A stretch of 64,000 bases of DNA. Origin: a bacterium (GTDB lineage Bacteria > SAR324 > XYD2-FULL-50-16). The DNA is taken from the NCBI GenBank assembly GCA_032250835.1, contig JAVVEA010000001.1, positions 512,001-576,000 of the forward strand, in the 5' to 3' direction. The translations under genes were made by a program, and so were the position numbers. A model generated the notes under the pieces. The model saw only the letters and a program-made list of their open reading frames with translations. It did no database searches and was not told the origin of the DNA. Positions 30,439-34,985 of this stretch are shown in pieces; within the stretch, counting starts at the first letter, position 1, and each line of letters opens with the position of its first letter.

Positions 30439-31320
30439 TTAAGGTAGCGGCACCAGCGGGATTTGGAGGGCTAGGCGGTTGTCTTCGGACATCGGCTGGC
30501 CGGGCGTCAGGTAAAGCCCTACCTCGGGCCCTGGGGCTAACTCCCGCCCGGAGTTGGGCAGCCATGCCCCATAGATATAATTTAAGGTATGGGGGTAGCG
30601 GCTCATGGGCCCTTGGTGGATAAATTCGGCGTAAAGACCCGCCGGTAGAATGCGCAGCTCAAAGCCCTCGGGTGCTTCGGGCCTGGGCCAGAGCAGGCCG
30701 CCAAAATATTCTTGGGCTTCCTGCCAGTCTTCTTCCTTGCCCGGTGTGATACTGGCTCGTTGGGCTCCGGCGGCTTCGGGCAGGGCGGCTAAATCGGGGC
30801 CTAGGCTCTGCCAAAGCTGGCTGACTGCCTGAATATTCTGCGCCGCAGCCTGAGCCATCAAGCCCACTTGAGTGGCCCGGCCGATCAAGTATCGCTCCTC
30901 AAGCTCAATTAACTTCGGTTCCATGCTGAAGCCTTTAAAGAGGTGGTTTAAGTAATCTGCGTCCATCTTAGCTTTCTGGGGGATCAGCCAGCGGCCCTGG
31001 TGGCTGCGTCGGAAAGCCGAGGGGCTTTGGCCAAAGGCCCGCTTAAAGGCCCGGCAAAAGACCTCGTGGGATTCATAGCCTTGGTTCAGCGCGATATCTA
31101 AAACCTTTTGCGGGGTTTCGGCCAAAGCCTTTGCGGCCACAGAAAGCCGCCGCGCGGCTATATACTCGCCCAGACTTTCGCCCAAGAGGACCTTAAAAAC
31201 CCGCTGGAAGTGCCAGGACGAATATCCGGCTACCTCGGCCACTTCAGCGCAGCTTAAAGCGCGGTCCAGGTGATTTTCCACAAAATCGATAGCTCCGTTG
31301 ATCCTGGTTAGATAGCTCAT
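30439..31320 (-). CDS. AraC family regulator with C-terminal GyrI-like effector domain (Rob-like)
   Basis: N-terminal double HTH (YSSWHFQRVF; GYESHEVFCRAFKR); C-terminal LPAGLYAEF.H.G...IYGAWLP. Confidence 0.9.
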   Translation of the reverse strand: MSYLTRINGAIDFVENHLDRALSCAEVAEVAGYSSWHFQRVFKVLLGESLGEYIAARRLSVAAKALAETPQKVLDIALNQGYESHEVFCRAFKRAFGQSPSAFRRSHQGRWLIPQKAKMDADYLNHLFKGFSMEPKLIELEERYLIGRATQVGLMAQAAAQNIQAVSQLWQSLGPDLAALPEAAGAQRASITPGKEEDWQEAQEYFGGLLWPRPEAPEGFELRILPAGLYAEFIHQGPMSRYPHTLNYIYGAWLPNSGRELAPGPEVGLYLTPGQPMSEDNRLALQIPLVPLP

Positions 31321-31396
31321 GGGCCCATGATAATAATTGAAAATAGTTCCTTCTTGATCAATCCTGCGCCCAGTTTTGGGGAGCTTCCCTTGGGGC

Positions 31397-31425
31397 TTGA
31401 GAAAGCTGGGGCGCTGTGGGATAAT
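31397..31425 (+). promoter_or_regulatory. Sigma70-type promoter of smpB
   Basis: TTGAGA-17 bp-GATAAT with an extended -10 TG. Confidence 0.6.
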
Positions 31426-31450
31426 GCGGTTTAACTAACGGTAGGGAACC

Positions 31451-31900
31451 ATGTCTAGTATTGTCCGCAACAAAAAGGCCTTCTTCGAATATGAGATTTT
31501 GGAGAAGTTCGAAGCCGGGATCGCCCTGGTCGGTACGGAGGTCAAGAGCCTACGCGCCGGGAAGGTGAAGATCATTGAGGCCTTCTGCCGGGTCAATAAC
31601 TCCTTTGAACTGGAGTTGCATATGCTCGACATCGCCCAATACACCCACGGCAACCTAAACAACCACGAACGCACCCGCGTGCGTAAGTTGTTGATGCACA
31701 AAAACGAAATCCGCCGCATCGACCAAAAGACCCGTGAAAAGGGCCTGACCATCGTGCCCATTTCGCTTTATTTTAAGCGCGGCAAGGTGAAGGTGGAAAT
31801 CGCCCTGGCCAAGGGCAAGAAACTACACGACAAACGCGCCGACATGAAGGCCAAAGACGCCAAGATGGAAATCGACCGCGCCCTCAAAGGCCAGCACTAG
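31451..31900 (+). CDS. smpB: SsrA-binding protein
   Basis: NKKAFFEY, EAGIALVGTEVKSLR, RKLLMHK, KGKKLHDKR. Confidence 0.98.
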   Translation: MSSIVRNKKAFFEYEILEKFEAGIALVGTEVKSLRAGKVKIIEAFCRVNNSFELELHMLDIAQYTHGNLNNHERTRVRKLLMHKNEIRRIDQKTREKGLTIVPISLYFKRGKVKVEIALAKGKKLHDKRADMKAKDAKMEIDRALKGQH

Positions 31901-32731
31901 TGTCCCGTTCGGTGGATTCGTTTACACAGCTTCCGTATTGGGACTTTGAGACAAAACTTAAACCAGCAGAGGCGACGGGCGTAGCTTCAGGTTCCAGGTT
32001 CTGGGTTCTGGGGAGCACAAAGCCTTGTTAGGTTAAAAGTGATGGGACTACTTTTTTTGGCTCATTAAGGAGCTTCGAGGCCGCAGGCCGAGGGCGACGT
32101 GTGTGACGACGCGAGCTGGCGAGTGTTGCGCAGCCTAAACCGTTGGCGAAGCCAACACTCAACGAAAAAGTAGCAAAAAAACCAGCCCCCAGGTGGCTCG
32201 CCGCTAAGACCCCGTACACCAAACTACGCTAAAAGCCAAAACTCGCCCCGCCAAGCAGCACCGAACGAAGTGAGGGCTGCGGGCGTAGCGACGCGAGCCA
32301 GCGAGTGTTGCTCATGTTGACGGTCGGCGAAGCCGACTCCCTTACGCTCGGTGCTCGAACAGTTGGCTTTCTTAACGCTCCGTTTGGCTACGGGCTCTAA
32401 GCGTCTCACCAACGGGGGAACCATAAAGGCCCTTACTGTACGGCTATGGCAAAAGGGAAATTTACGGCGTAGCCGACTCCTAAGTGGTCGGTGCTCGAAC
32501 AGTTGGCATTTTGGCTAGGCAATACTCGCCGGCTCGCATTGCTACCCACGCAGCCCTCGGCCTGTCGGCCTCGAAGCTGCTTAGCGTGGCTACGGGCTCA
32601 AAGCTGCTCGAAAAAATGGGGGAGGGTCTACGCAGTCAAGCTTTGGATTGAGCCGAAGAGTTTAAAATAGCCGGAAGTCTGAAATCAAGGTGGGAATCAG
32701 ATGTAAACCTAACAGCCAAACGAGACACTAG
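31897..32731. mobile_element. Non-autonomous MITE-like element, ~830 bp, CTAG-flanked, with nested internal repeats
   Basis: CTAG at 31897-31900 and 32728-32731; imperfect 26-bp terminal inverted repeats at 31901-31926 and 32702-32727 (19/26 identical); no credible ORF. Confidence 0.75.
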
Positions 32732-32780
32732 CGCGTCTCATCCAATCTTGGCGAGACGAGCTAGGCCTATAGGTTGACTT

Positions 32781-34307
32781 TTAAAAGTCTACAATGTCCG
32801 AAGTGCTCACGCCGGAAGCGCCGGTGGACAGGTCGATACTCCCCAGATAGTCCTTGCCGATATTGGCCGAGTCGGTGCCGAACTTCCACCAGTGTTTGAG
32901 ATTTGCAGAACTGCTATAATTGCCCCCATCCACACTCAAGTCGGCGGTGGCACTGCCGGAACTATAAAGCGCCGTCACTTCGCTGGCACTCAAGACGCTG
33001 CCCCAAAGGGCCAAGGAGTTGACGTTGCCGGTGAAGTTGTAAGAACTAATCGCTCCGTTGTAGTTGCCAACCGTCAGATATTCGTTCCCGTCGGTCTGGT
33101 TCCCGCTGAAGCTGCTACTAACTGGCGTTGCGCTAGCCAAGGAGCCGTTGACGTAAAACTTCAAGCTCTTGGTTGAGCCGTCCCAAGTCAAGACTAGGTG
33201 ATAAACCGAGCCGGTCGCGTAGCTGCTGCTAGTCAAGGATTCATGAGCCAAACTGCCGGTGCTTTGCCCATGGACTGCATAGCGGAAGTTGCCGCCGCTT
33301 TGGTAGCGGATTTCTATGGCCCCTTCTTCGTAGTTCGCCGTTGGGGTCATGAACAAGATATAGCCTTGAACGCTAGGGTAACTGGTCGGCTTGACCCAGG
33401 TGGAGATGCTAAAGGTATTGCTGACCCCGAAGGTGCTGGCTGTGCTGTTGCGCAGGAACTTGGTGGGGGATAGTGCGACGGCTTTCGCGTTGCTGGTCAC
33501 GCTCAAGCCCGAAGCGGTGAGCGCCTGAGTCGTGTAGCTCAGCGTCGATGCGCTGGCTAGGCTGGTAGCGTCGGTAGCGGCGGCTGTGGTGGTGATTTTT
33601 AGGTTGTAAGTCGTGCCGCTGGCGGCCCCGCTGGGGGTGATGACTAGTACCTTTTTGTCCGTAGATAGCGCCAAGCTTAAGGCGAGGCAGTTGGTGAAAC
33701 TGTCCGCCGAGATTTGGACGCTCCCGGTGCAGGTACCCGCACTGGAATTGGCCGTCAGGCTGGTGGTATCCATCGCCTTGCTGAAGGTCGCGGTAACGGC
33801 AGAACTCGCCGACACCCCAGTAACACCGTCAACTCGGTCGTAGCTAACCGTTGGGGCCGAGGCGACAATGAAGCCGTCGGCCATGGTATCGTTGGCTGCC
33901 ATCGTCGCACCGTTGCTGCCCTGGGCACCGGTCGTTACTTTAAGCTTGTAGGTCGTTGCCGCAGATAAATTGCTGCTGGGCGTCGCGGTATAAGATAGTT
34001 GGTCGCTAGATTCGCTAAGGGTCGAATTTAAGGGAACGCAGGTTACAAAATCGTCGCTCGAAAGCTGGATCACGCCGGTGCAATCGGCAGAACCGTCGTT
34101 GGTGGTGATGGAACTACTGCTCATGGTCTGATCAAAGGTGACCTTGAGGGTGCTGTTGGCCGCTACCGATGCATCCCCATTGGCTGGGGTAGTAGAGCTT
34201 ACCGTCGGTAAGTCGGCGGTGGCCACCTCATCTTCTTTCGGGGCTGCGCAGCCCAACAAGAAAAACGGAATCAACGCAATAGACAAGTACTTTAGGTTTG
34301 TTTTCAT
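32781..34307 (-). CDS. Surface lipoprotein with two Ig-like (Big_5/SbsA type) domains and a LamG-like domain
   Basis: Lipobox LLGC; two repeats with C.G..Q.S.D.F..C; FSISTWVKP...HLVLTWDG...YVNG...F.G....L..W. Confidence 0.85.
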   Translation of the reverse strand: MKTNLKYLSIALIPFFLLGCAAPKEDEVATADLPTVSSTTPANGDASVAANSTLKVTFDQTMSSSSITTNDGSADCTGVIQLSSDDFVTCVPLNSTLSESSDQLSYTATPSSNLSAATTYKLKVTTGAQGSNGATMAANDTMADGFIVASAPTVSYDRVDGVTGVSASSAVTATFSKAMDTTSLTANSSAGTCTGSVQISADSFTNCLALSLALSTDKKVLVITPSGAASGTTYNLKITTTAAATDATSLASASTLSYTTQALTASGLSVTSNAKAVALSPTKFLRNSTASTFGVSNTFSISTWVKPTSYPSVQGYILFMTPTANYEEGAIEIRYQSGGNFRYAVHGQSTGSLAHESLTSSSYATGSVYHLVLTWDGSTKSLKFYVNGSLASATPVSSSFSGNQTDGNEYLTVGNYNGAISSYNFTGNVNSLALWGSVLSASEVTALYSSGSATADLSVDGGNYSSSANLKHWWKFGTDSANIGKDYLGSIDLSTGASGVSTSDIVDF

Positions 34308-34485
34308 GGGAAAGTCCTCCTGTTACCCATTGATGGCCAGACATGAATCTTTCGCTCTGCAACTTCATGTTAACATTTAATCGAAAATTTCTGACCAATA
34401 ATCTACCTTCTGCATTGACCAAGCCAAAGTCGAATATTTTTCCACGACATTCGGTTTCTTCGAGATTCCGGCCTCTTGAAGCCGC

Positions 34486-34514
34486 TTGACCTAAAGACTG
34501 AAGCAAGGTAGAAT
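34486..34514 (+). promoter_or_regulatory. Sigma70-type promoter of ssrA
   Basis: TTGACC-17 bp-TAGAAT, ~50 bp upstream of the mature tmRNA 5' end. Confidence 0.75.
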
Positions 34515-34566
34515 GGTTTCAGCTTTAAAGGAGAATTTATCCTTTAAAGTCCCTGCCTTTCCTTTT

Positions 34567-34985
34567 GGGGGTGTAATTGGATCTCGACTGGGATGAGCGG
34601 GAAGTAGAGAAGCAAGCCGTGGTTGATCGAAGGGCCACGTGAAAAATCGATTGATTAGTAACTGCTAACAACAGCGAATACAACCTGAACGAAGTAGCTA
34701 TTGCTGCATAAGCAATAGCCATCTTAGCGATGGTTTTCGGCCCCCGGTTCTGCCGCGGGCTGGGCGGGAGCGGCGACGATGTCTGGTAATCGTTGTCTTC
34801 TGTAACACCACCAGGCTGGTTTTTTGCGGGGCTGTGACGCAAGAAACGAGAACAACCGCAGCTGGCGTGATATGAGGTCGCCCGATACCAAGACCATCAC
34901 GCAAGATCAAAATTACGGGCTAAGCTTGTAGAATGCTATTTCCTCCAGCCACAGGACCCGGGTTCGACTCCCGGCACCTCCACCA
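34567..34985 (+). ncRNA. ssrA: tmRNA; tag peptide (A)ANNSEYNLNEVAIAA* at 34664-34711
   Basis: 5' GGGGGTG pairs with 3' CACCTCC-ACCA with the G3:U wobble; T arm ccggGTTCGActcccgg; GTAACT-GCT resume context; tag ends in AA; smpB nearby. Confidence 0.97.

What the first reader, a model, noticed from the sequence alone, without database searches (positions are those of the whole stretch)
32048..32610. Nested modular repeat architecture inside the element: candidate large structured RNA or ssDNA
A ~70-nt module occurs three times: direct at 32066-32135 and 32253-32311, and inverted at 32513-32583. A second module, AGCCGACTCC-N7-TCGGTGCTCGAACAGTTGGC, repeats exactly 140 bp apart (32331 and 32471). 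Each copy is followed by TGGCTACGGGCTC (32385, 32587), and a degenerate inverted copy lies near 32202-32240. CTACTTTTT (32048) pairs with AAAAAGTAG (32165). Modules are nested in one another and could form alternative long-range pairings. This is more complex than a simple MITE and I do not recognise it as a known family. It would be co-transcribed with smpB if no terminator intervenes.
Basis: partly seen in the sequence, partly recalled or inferred. Interest (0 to 1): 0.7.

Follow-up and report, generated by a model that had tools for sequence, protein, structure and literature searches.

The report
Mosaic hairpin repeats behind smpB
The flagged stretch is one nested cluster of a genome-wide family of small hairpin-forming DNA repeat modules, an uncatalogued relative in kind of the REP/BIME and BOX repeats of other bacteria, not a gene for one large RNA.

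Summary
Window 31931-32616 is not a single RNA gene. It is one array of a dispersed repeat family: about 150 module copies at 37 loci of this 3.66-Mb genome.

The syntax is a core, M1-B-C. A roughly 100-nt module, A, sits optionally at three fixed places: the loop of the M1/B hairpin, the B|C junction, and inverted inside C. In the window all three places are filled. The array lies inside an 827-bp inverted-repeat shell flanked by CTAG, inserted at the smpB stop codon.

Module A has three hairpins kept by compensatory changes. They are strand-specific: G.T wobbles, tandem G.A pairs and GNA triloops. Module A occurs 66 times here but only 3-5 times in three genomes of two related genera, 5 of 10 of whose loci lie beside tRNA or tmRNA genes (four directly 3' of one), on the same strand.

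There is no Rfam match, no expression data, and no identified mobilising enzyme. My best reading is non-autonomous, REP/BIME- or BOX-like structured repeats that spread as DNA. The scan has reported the same kind of mosaic hairpin repeat in other genomes. Interest is moderate.

The parts
31897..31900 (.). CTAG direct repeat (left). It includes the smpB stop codon TAG at 31898-31900. Candidate target-site duplication of the shell element.
   Evidence: both full copies of the shell (the window and C22:338631-339455) are flanked by CTAG on both sides.
31901..31930 (+). Left terminal inverted repeat of the 827-bp MITE-like shell (TGTCCCGTTCGG...GTTTACA).
   Evidence: pair I3 (33 nt, 76% complementary to 32702-32734); homology with the C22 copy starts exactly here.
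31931..31997 (+). Module M0. It runs into GTTCTGG heptamer repeats.
   Evidence: 5 copies in the genome.
31998..32062 (+). Module M1. Its 3' end (32048-32056) is the 5' arm of hairpin P1.
   Evidence: 23 copies; in paralogues without an insert P1 is a 12-bp hairpin with 3 covarying pairs.
32063..32164 (+). Module A, copy 1 (A1 subtype), inserted in the loop of P1. Hairpins: H1 32069-32098, H2 32106-32129, H3 32142-32156.
   Evidence: Model R1 gives 111 bits here. The M1|B site is empty in 15 paralogues and filled in 5.
32165..32248 (+). Module B. 32165-32173 is the 3' arm of P1. 32202-32220 is the 5' strand of the long-range B:C helix.
   Evidence: 24 copies; a 16-bp helix with 2 covarying pairs.
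32249..32341 (+). Module A, copy 2 (A2 subtype), at the B|C junction.
   Evidence: The B|C site is empty in 11 paralogues and filled in 7.
32345..32435 (+). Module C, intact. 32386-32403 is the 3' strand of the B:C helix.
   Evidence: 25 copies..
32436..32464 (+). Spacer X, unique to this copy.
   Evidence: 1 copy; it does not align with the C22 copy.
32465..32508 (+). Remnant of an A-module H3 hairpin (CGGCGTAGCCGAC) followed by the 5' half of a second C module.
   Evidence: family D1..
32509..32590 (-). Module A, copy 3 (A3 subtype), inverted. It replaces the small internal hairpin of the second C module.
   Evidence: (I1, I2, I4). A3r is followed by a C 3' half at 6 loci.
32587..32616 (+). 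3' half of the second C module (variant), a second possible partner for 32202-32220.
   Evidence: family D5..
32617..32727 (+). Right, shell-specific part of the MITE-like element, ending in the right inverted repeat (about 32698-32727).
32728..32731 (.). CTAG direct repeat (right).

Best explanation
Window 31931-32616 is one locus of a lineage-specific family of non-coding, hairpin-forming, mosaic intergenic repeats. It is the same kind of thing as REP/BIME, pneumococcal BOX or Neisseria mosaic elements.

Shown:
- There is a core unit M1-B-C of about 250 nt. It is held together by a 12-bp hairpin (M1 with B) and a 16-bp long-range helix (B with C).
- A separate three-hairpin module A of about 100 nt occurs solo, in tandem, and as an optional insert at three fixed apical or junction sites of the core.
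- In the window all three sites are occupied.
- The composite lies inside an 827-bp inverted-repeat shell flanked by CTAG, at the smpB stop codon.

Inferred:
- The modules spread and recombine as DNA.
- Module A acts as a folded single strand of one defined polarity, most likely ssDNA exposed at replication forks or transcription bubbles. It lands just 3' of other hairpin-forming sequences: tRNA and tmRNA 3' ends, terminator T-runs, and loops of other repeats.
- Spread depends on an enzyme supplied in trans. The only candidate seen is the genome's single Y1 (HUH) transposase, and nothing links it to the modules.
- Where an array follows a gene with no terminator in between, as after smpB, it would be carried in the 3' untranslated region and fold there. 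That would be a side effect, not a dedicated function.
For: Copy number. 143 BLAST matches in the own genome. 150 non-overlapping module copies at 37 loci, with a recurring order M1-(A1)-B-(A2)-C-(A3 inverted). Paralogous sites occur both empty and filled: M1|B 15 empty, 5 filled; B|C 11 empty, 7 filled.

Location. By a crude ORF call, 15 loci lie between convergent genes, 17 between tandem genes, 1 between divergent genes, and 4 at contig ends, of 37.

Structure of A. 83.8-88.4% of cells are paired against 28-43% with partners slid. 54-55 cells changed on both sides against about 18 in shuffles, 0 of 500 shuffles as high. A tandem G.A/A.G (29 copies) swaps in concert with C-G/A-T (21 copies) of 58.

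Structure of the core. 97% paired, with 7 pairs changed on both sides.

Strand specificity of A. 134 G.T against 44 A.C cells. 122 GCGNAGC/CCGNAGG heptamers on the forward strand against 3 on the reverse, in 58 copies. Such heptamers form very stable DNA mini-hairpins whose RNA versions are considerably less stable (PMC13037366, abstract and passages; PMC3201870, abstract in the search listing).

Insertion sites. Solo A1 copies directly follow hairpin plus T-run sequences. Tandem A copies abut tRNA-Ser(cga) and tRNA-Ser(gct).

Amplification. Model R1 finds 66 copies here against 5, 3 and 3 in three relatives and 0 in the other 15 genomes of the family.

The locus as an insertion. smpB is directly followed by tmRNA in 3 of 6 relatives' loci examined. 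Here 2.67 kb intervene.

Not coding. The H2 loop is 10 nt in 48 copies and 11 nt in 9.
Against: - No mobilising enzyme is identified. No TnpB, reverse transcriptase or IS110 transposase was found. The single Y1 gene is flanked by an unrelated 25-nt inverted repeat.
- No target-site duplication or clean empty-versus-filled junction could be defined for A. At M1|B the filled form lacks the 5 nt GGCAA of the empty form.
- The subtype of A is tied to its position (A1, A2, A3). This fits a few old captures followed by copying of whole composites as well as it fits repeated insertion.
- Single modules are not more stable than shuffled sequence (z -0.3 to -2.1).
- G.T wobbles and co-orientation with tRNA genes fit an RNA role equally well.
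- My hairpin model for A was drawn by eye on the forward strand, which biases the strand comparison.
- Copies are paralogues, so cell counts overstate the number of independent events.
Confidence: 0.55

Rival explanations
1. Module A is primarily a functional RNA element. It would be a structured 3' trailer or internal spacer of stable-RNA operons, for example a processing, termination or decoy element comparable to tRNA external or internal transcribed spacers. It was later copied around this genome, and the arrays act as 3'-UTR structures.
For: In relatives, 5 of 10 loci with an A-like copy lie beside tRNA or tmRNA genes:
- between tRNA-Leu(tag) and tRNA-Gly(gcc) inside a six-tRNA operon;
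- the same spacer in a second genome;
- after tRNA-Ser(gct);
- between tRNA-Ser(tga) and tRNA-Ser(gct);
- after tmRNA.

With the two tRNA-Ser loci of this genome, all 7 are on the strand of the RNA gene, so the forward strand is transcribed there. Conserved G.U positions lie on that strand. Unpaired stretches such as CGACG.G.GUA are conserved across three genera while the stems vary. The core is co-oriented with flanking genes in 9 of 11 tandem contexts (my reading).
Against: - The position differs between genera: after tRNA-Ser(gct) here, before it in G007. It is absent after tmRNA and in the Leu(tag)/Gly(gcc) spacer here.
- 15 of 19 family genomes have no copy.
- A3 copies are always inverted relative to A1 and A2 in the same array, so one transcript cannot carry all copies in the folding sense.
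- GNA triloops closed by C-G are the hallmark of DNA mini-hairpins, not RNA ones (PMC13037366, passages).
Confidence: 0.25
2. One reading: 32048-32610 encodes one large, locus-specific structured RNA or ssDNA whose nested modules form alternative long-range pairings.
For: The 880-nt intergenic region folds well below shuffles on both strands (z -6.9 and -8.1). The B strand 32202-32220 has two possible partners, 32386-32403 and 32588-32605.
Against: - Every module recurs at many other loci in other combinations.
- The low folding energy comes mainly from the inverted A1/A3 copies.
- The only other copy of the whole element (C22) has a different left interior.
- Relatives have no such sequence after smpB.
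- No Rfam family matches.
Confidence: 0.03
3. The array is duplication debris: neutral leftovers of local duplications and recombination, with no constraint on structure and no mobility.
For: Arrays are patchworks with truncated units, tandem 92-96-nt runs and heptamer slippage. Recombination between arrays is evident: the window and C22 copies are about 97% alike from B onward but unalignable to the left.
Against: - Compensatory and concerted changes keep the hairpins.
- The module architecture is kept across three genera.
- Copies lie on 18 contigs, not locally.
- There is a strong strand asymmetry of mini-hairpin motifs.
Confidence: 0.1

Closest known systems
REP sequences and BIMEs (bacterial interspersed mosaic elements), including GTAG-tagged REPs and their RAYT/TIRYT transposases (Di Nocera et al. 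2013, PMC3733652: abstract and sections 5, 7 and 16 read; Nunvar et al. 2010, PMC2817692: abstract in the search listing only)
   Same: - Extragenic and multi-copy, mostly between convergent or same-direction genes.
- Hairpins with compensatory subfamilies and G.T pairs.
- Clustered into mosaics with other motifs.
- Sometimes inserted inside larger palindromes.
- H2 of module A is a 7-bp stem with a 10-11-nt loop, preceded by GTAG in 41 of 58 copies, like a GTAG REP.
   Different: - The unit is about 100 nt with three different hairpins, not one palindrome of 20-40 bp.
- 13 of 58 copies have GTGA in place of GTAG.
- No RAYT gene is flanked by these units.
- The one Y1 gene has its own unrelated inverted-repeat family.
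- The link to tRNA and tmRNA 3' ends in relatives is not a described REP trait.
Pneumococcal BOX elements (boxA-boxB(n)-boxC) (Croucher et al. 2011, PMC3049150: abstract and outline read)
   Same: - Modular elements with a variable number of internal modules between fixed ends.
- Extensive secondary structure.
- Restricted to one species group, with few copies in close relatives.
- No known transposase.
- Judged to be parasitic repeats that affect co-transcribed genes.
   Different: This is an analogy only. It concerns a different phylum, and sequence similarity was not tested because no BOX sequence was at hand. Here the variable module is itself an independent dispersed element, and it can be inverted.
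MITEs (miniature inverted-repeat transposable elements). This applies to the 827-bp shell only.
   Same: Inverted termini of about 30 nt, a 4-bp flanking direct repeat (CTAG) at both copies, no ORF, small size.
   Different: Only two full copies and one fragment exist, and no autonomous partner is in the assembly. Most of its interior is made of the other repeat family.
DNA mini-hairpins d(GCGNAGC), as at ssDNA replication-initiation sites (PMC13037366: abstract and passages read)
   Same: The heptamer motif occurs up to three times per A module, on one strand only.
   Different: Those are single functional hairpins in phage and plasmid origins. No priming or origin role was tested here.

Membership tests
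tmRNA (ssrA), expected next to smpB | Match to the tRNA-like domain, tag reading frame and covariance model RF00023. | tested here: not met
   ARAGORN and Rfam find nothing in 31000-34000 / 31000-33800. The real tmRNA is at 34567-34985 (136 bits).
Any Rfam family | Covariance-model match. | tested here: not met
   0 matches at E up to 1 over 31000-33800 on both strands, 4227 families.
REP / GTAG-tagged REP | A single palindrome of 20-40 bp with an unpaired GTAG (or CGTC) at one end. | tested here: inconclusive
   Hairpin H2 alone fits: GTAG in 41 of 58 copies, GTGA in 13, a 7-bp stem and a 10-11-nt loop. The repeated unit, however, is about 100 nt with two further hairpins.
REP / REPIN | A cognate RAYT gene flanked by the same repeats. 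| tested here: not met
   There is one Y1_Tnp gene (C43:2594-2884, 44 bits). It is flanked by a 25-nt inverted repeat unrelated to modules A, B or C. No Y1_Tnp gene was found in G006, G007 or G013.
BIME-type mosaic | Clusters of repeats in fixed relative order and orientation, joined by conserved linker motifs, in extragenic DNA. | tested here: met
   Recurring order M1-(A1)-B-(A2)-C-(A3 inverted) at many of the 37 loci. 32 of 33 loci classified by a crude ORF call lie between convergent or tandem genes.
MITE (the shell, 31901-32727) | Terminal inverted repeats, a target-site duplication, no transposase gene, more than one copy. | tested here: met
   Arms of 33 nt, 76% complementary. CTAG on both sides of both copies, with homology starting and ending exactly at the arms.
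IS200/IS605-derived palindrome-associated elements | Subterminal hairpins on one strand at both ends, insertion 3' of a fixed tetra- or pentanucleotide, and a TnpA (Y1) gene carrying the same ends. | tested here: inconclusive
   H1 and H3 are same-strand subterminal hairpins with similar C-GNA-G tops. The bases 5' of A copies share no fixed short word. No Y1 gene carries these ends.
Pneumococcal BOX | Sequence homology to boxA, boxB and boxC. | not tested
The comparison is by architecture only.

The most novel reading that the evidence does not exclude
Module A is an undescribed class of strand-specific structured element tied to the 3' ends of stable RNA genes. It could be either of two things. 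One is a hairpin-targeting ssDNA mobile module that integrates just downstream of tRNA or tmRNA CCA ends and terminators without any known transposase. The other is a functional trailer or spacer RNA of tRNA and tmRNA operons. In this one lineage it escaped and seeded a genome-wide mosaic. Its tandem G.A pairs and GNA-triloop mini-hairpins would be the recognition features.
Probability: 0.2. Interest if true: 0.65.

Novelty: new member of a known kind. Interest (0 to 1): 0.4.

Why it matters
The finding adds a well-resolved example of mosaic, structured intergenic repeats from a little-studied uncultured lineage. One related genome is labelled Candidatus Lambdaproteobacteria in its record title.

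Three features are testable:
- Paralogous empty and filled sites for a nested module.
- A marked one-strand bias of DNA mini-hairpin motifs, which bears on the old question of whether such repeats act as RNA or as ssDNA.
- A link to tRNA and tmRNA 3' ends in relatives that lack the amplification.

Practically, these repeats break the assembly: 4 of 37 arrays end contigs. They could also be mistaken for sRNA genes.

Tried and rejected
- **tmRNA or tRNA in the flagged region.** None found.
- **Expression.** The look-up of sequencing runs listed no RNA holder, only one soil DNA run with 0.04 of the words, which I did not lay. This gives no information on expression.
- **RNAalifold on the 58-copy A alignment.** It gave an uninformative structure (-1.16 kcal/mol) because the H1 subtypes are misaligned. 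I used a hand-drawn structure instead.
- **First H1 register.** The register used was revised after the single-sequence folds.
- **Wider searches for A.**
  - Genome contigs pattern scan: 2 other records.
  - Metagenome contigs: the same contig again.
  - Viral contigs: 0.
  - plasmids, blastn with the whole shell: no match.
  - Model R1 over 88 genomes of the class: nothing beyond the three genera, except one 31-nt partial hit at E 6e-4.
- **B, C and M1 in relatives.** Not found by BLAST in 40 relatives. I built no covariance model for the core.
- **H3 as a free-standing REP.** Rejected. About 53 matches to the loose hairpin pattern, of which roughly 42 carry the three stem variants typical of module A; their positions relative to A modules were not checked.
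- **AAGGAG at the 5' end of A as a ribosome-binding site.** Rejected. No start codon follows, and the bases form the outer stem of H1.
- **Coding potential.** Rejected because of 1-nt length variation in the H2 loop.
- **Mobilising enzymes.** TnpB, RT and IS110 were not found in this 97%-complete assembly. Insertion sequences are often left unassembled, so this does not show absence.
- **Replication-strand bias.** Not testable on 43 contigs.

Full report
**1. Check of the observation**

The region lies between smpB (31451-31900, + strand) and a 508-aa minus-strand ORF (32781-34307).
- The ~70-nt module occurs twice direct and once inverted (D2, I1, I2, I4).
- The second module recurs 140 bp apart (D1).
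- The TGGCTACGGGCTC word occurs at 32385 and 32587 (D5).
- The 9-nt complement 32048-32056 / 32165-32173 is read directly.

smpB made a tmRNA gene the obvious candidate, but ARAGORN and Rfam find nothing here. The real tmRNA is at 34567-34985.

**2. The region is one locus of a dispersed family**

The 921 bases 31880-32800 give 143 BLAST matches in the organism's own 3.66-Mb, 43-contig genome. The starts and ends of the matches pile up at sharp boundaries, which cut the region into modules. I searched each module separately and kept the best non-overlapping hits (275 HSPs reduced to 150). This gives 150 module copies at 37 loci on 18 contigs:

| Module | Copies |
|---|---|
| A1-type | 26 |
| A2-type | 26 |
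| A3-type | 16 |
| C | 25 |
| B | 24 |
| M1 | 23 |
| M0 | 5 |
| small pieces (C2 2, T 2, X 1) | 5 |

Four arrays end a contig, so the true number is probably higher.

**3. Syntax of the arrays**

Read in one orientation, the arrays share an order: M1-(A1)-B-(A2)-C, with an inverted A3 inside C.
- The M1|B junction is empty at 15 sites, holds an A at 5, and holds an A at 2 more that run into contig ends.
- The B|C junction is empty at 11 sites and holds an A followed by C at 7.
- An inverted A followed by the 3' half of C occurs at 6 loci.

Module A also occurs without the core and in tandem runs of 92-116 nt period. In the window all three sites are filled, a second split C follows the first, and that produces the 'nested' picture.

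**4. The outer shell**

The whole array sits in an 827-bp element, 31901-32727. It has imperfect ~30-nt inverted termini (I3) and CTAG on both sides. The left CTAG contains the smpB stop codon.

A second copy, C22:338631-339455, starts and ends at the same bases and is also flanked by CTAG. The two copies are about 97% alike from module B onward but cannot be aligned to the left of it. Arrays therefore exchange segments.

In 3 of 6 relatives' smpB loci examined, tmRNA follows smpB within about 30-130 nt. In the other three loci it was not within the locus. Here 2.67 kb intervene: the shell plus the ORF, which has Big_5 and Laminin_G_3 domains.

**5. Structure**

*The core.* Eight paralogous M1-B-C cores without inserts were aligned. 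They give a consensus fold with:
- a 12-bp hairpin joining the end of M1 to the start of B (3 pairs changed on both sides);
- a 16-bp long-range helix between B and C (2 such pairs).

Overall 97.2% of cells are paired, against 34-61% with partners slid. The three A sites are the loop of the first hairpin and two places inside the region enclosed by the long-range helix.

*Module A.* I aligned 55 copies from this genome plus 3 from relatives. RNAalifold failed on this alignment, so I tested a hand-drawn three-hairpin model.
- 88.4% of cells are paired (83.8% with the extended H1), against 28-43% slid.
- 54-55 cells are changed on both sides, against about 18 in shuffles; 0 of 500 shuffles reach that.
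- In the outer stem of H1, a tandem G.A/A.G (29 copies) is replaced in concert by C-G/A-T (21 copies) of 58. A second tandem G.A/A.G is present in 46 of 58.

*Caveats.* The copies are paralogues, so these counts are not independent events. The model was drawn on one strand. Single modules do not fold better than shuffled sequence (z -0.3 to -2.1 on the forward strand).

**6. Strand asymmetry**

On the forward strand of A the model has 134 G.T cells and 44 A.C cells. The 58 copies carry 122 heptamers of the form GCGNAGC or CCGNAGG on the forward strand and 3 on the reverse. H3 loops are GAA or GCA in 48 of 58 copies.

Such heptamers are the 'mini-hairpin DNA' motif. It is very stable as DNA and considerably less so as RNA (PMC13037366, abstract and passages). 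The C-G closing pair is what matters for stability (PMC3201870, abstract in the search listing).

This favours, but does not prove, an ssDNA role. A3 copies are always inverted relative to A1 and A2 in the same array, so one transcript cannot hold all three in the folding sense.

**7. Distribution**

- BLAST of the array against 40 relatives matched only the A part, in two genomes.
- An exact degenerate pattern for A found two other records among about 185,000 species genomes. One is titled Candidatus Lambdaproteobacteria bacterium RIFOXYD2_FULL_50_16, the other an uncultured bacterium.
- In JGI metagenomes the pattern found only the first of these again. It found nothing in viral contigs. A blastn of the whole shell found nothing in plasmids.
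- A covariance model of A (R1) finds 66 copies here, 5 in G006, 3 in G013, 3 in G007 and none in the other 15 genomes of the family.
- Across 88 genomes of the class it finds nothing further, apart from one 31-nt partial hit.

**8. What lies next to A**

In the relatives, 5 of 10 loci with an A-like copy are beside stable-RNA genes, on the same strand:
- between tRNA-Leu(tag) and tRNA-Gly(gcc) inside a six-tRNA operon (G006);
- the same spacer in G013, where only a 3' fragment of the upstream tRNA remains;
- directly after tRNA-Ser(gct) (G006);
- between tRNA-Ser(tga) and tRNA-Ser(gct) (G007);
- directly after tmRNA (G006).

In this genome, 2 of 45 tRNA genes, tRNA-Ser(cga) and tRNA-Ser(gct), are followed within 8 and 1 nt by tandem A copies. 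None follows the tmRNA.

Solo A1 copies directly follow a hairpin plus T-run. One of these is scored terminator-like by the scan. The other has too long a loop for the scan's rule.

By a crude ORF call (ORFs of at least 120 aa, longest kept first), the 37 arrays lie between convergent genes at 15 loci, tandem genes at 17 and divergent genes at 1; 4 are at contig ends.

**9. Enzymes**

The assembly (97% complete) has one Y1_Tnp gene. It is flanked by a 25-nt inverted repeat unrelated to the modules. That repeat has about 51 copies, 10 of them within 1 kb of an array.

No TnpB, reverse transcriptase or IS110 transposase was found. G006, G007 and G013, which have few A copies, have no Y1_Tnp match. 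That is a single-case correlation, not evidence that the Y1 enzyme moves A.

**10. Comparison with known systems**

In kind this matches REP/BIME mosaics. Those are extragenic, lie between convergent or same-direction genes, form compensatory subfamilies with G.T pairs, cluster with other motifs, and are sometimes inserted in larger palindromes (PMC3733652: abstract and sections 5, 7 and 16 read). It also matches the modular, transposase-less BOX elements (PMC3049150: abstract read).

H2 preceded by GTAG (41 of 58 copies) resembles a GTAG REP. However, the unit is three hairpins and about 100 nt long, and no RAYT carries it. I therefore do not file it as a REP family.

The shell passes the MITE criteria.

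I found no description of this family. My searches were Rfam, three full-text searches and the collections above. These do not amount to an exhaustive literature check. Supplementary files of PMC3733652, which list REP families by genome, were not read.

The scan's own notes list several similar mosaic hairpin repeat families in other uncultured genomes, some beside tRNA genes. I did not test those.

**11. Verdict**

The object is a new, lineage-specific member of the known class of mosaic structured intergenic repeats, not a large RNA gene.

The mechanism is inferred: spread as single-stranded DNA into sites just 3' of hairpins. RNA-level function of module A remains the main rival.

Noticed in passing
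window 31901-34566: The usual smpB-ssrA adjacency, seen in 3 of 6 relatives' loci, is split here by 2.67 kb. The insert is the 827-bp repeat shell plus a minus-strand 508-aa ORF with Big_5 and Laminin_G_3 domains. The tmRNA keeps a promoter-like site of its own at 34486-34514.
   Followed up: partly
G000 C43:2594-2884 (L021:1346-2102) and about 51 sites genome-wide: The single Y1 (IS200-like) transposase gene is flanked by 25-nt inverted repeats. Copies of that repeat are scattered in the genome, and 10 of 51 lie within 1 kb of module arrays, for example on both sides of the array at C13:47117-47546.
   Followed up: partly
L066:1046-1661 (G006) compared with G000 C40:66477-67172: The tRNA operon Pro-Arg-His-Arg-Leu-Gly carries an 82-nt A-like module between tRNA-Leu(tag) and tRNA-Gly(gcc) in G006. 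The same spacer is 37 nt without it in this genome. In G013 (L063) ARAGORN does not call the upstream tRNA-Leu, and only its 3' end is recognisable.
   Followed up: partly
G000 C38:80915-81010 and window 31985-32012: Runs of the heptamer GTTCTAG / GTTCTGG (2 to about 8 units) sit at the M0/M1 border of several arrays.
   Followed up: no
G000 C1:1-465, C1:123013-123273, C7:85692-85836, C8:18-462: Four arrays lie at contig ends, so these repeats break the assembly and the copy numbers given are lower bounds.
   Followed up: no
L067, L070 (G013) and L073 (G006): Short A-like variants of about 80 nt, with H2 replaced by a long A/U-rich hairpin, follow a degenerate tRNA-3'-end-like word (AATCCCTATCTCC). 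At L073 they form a tandem run of three at a contig start.
   Followed up: no
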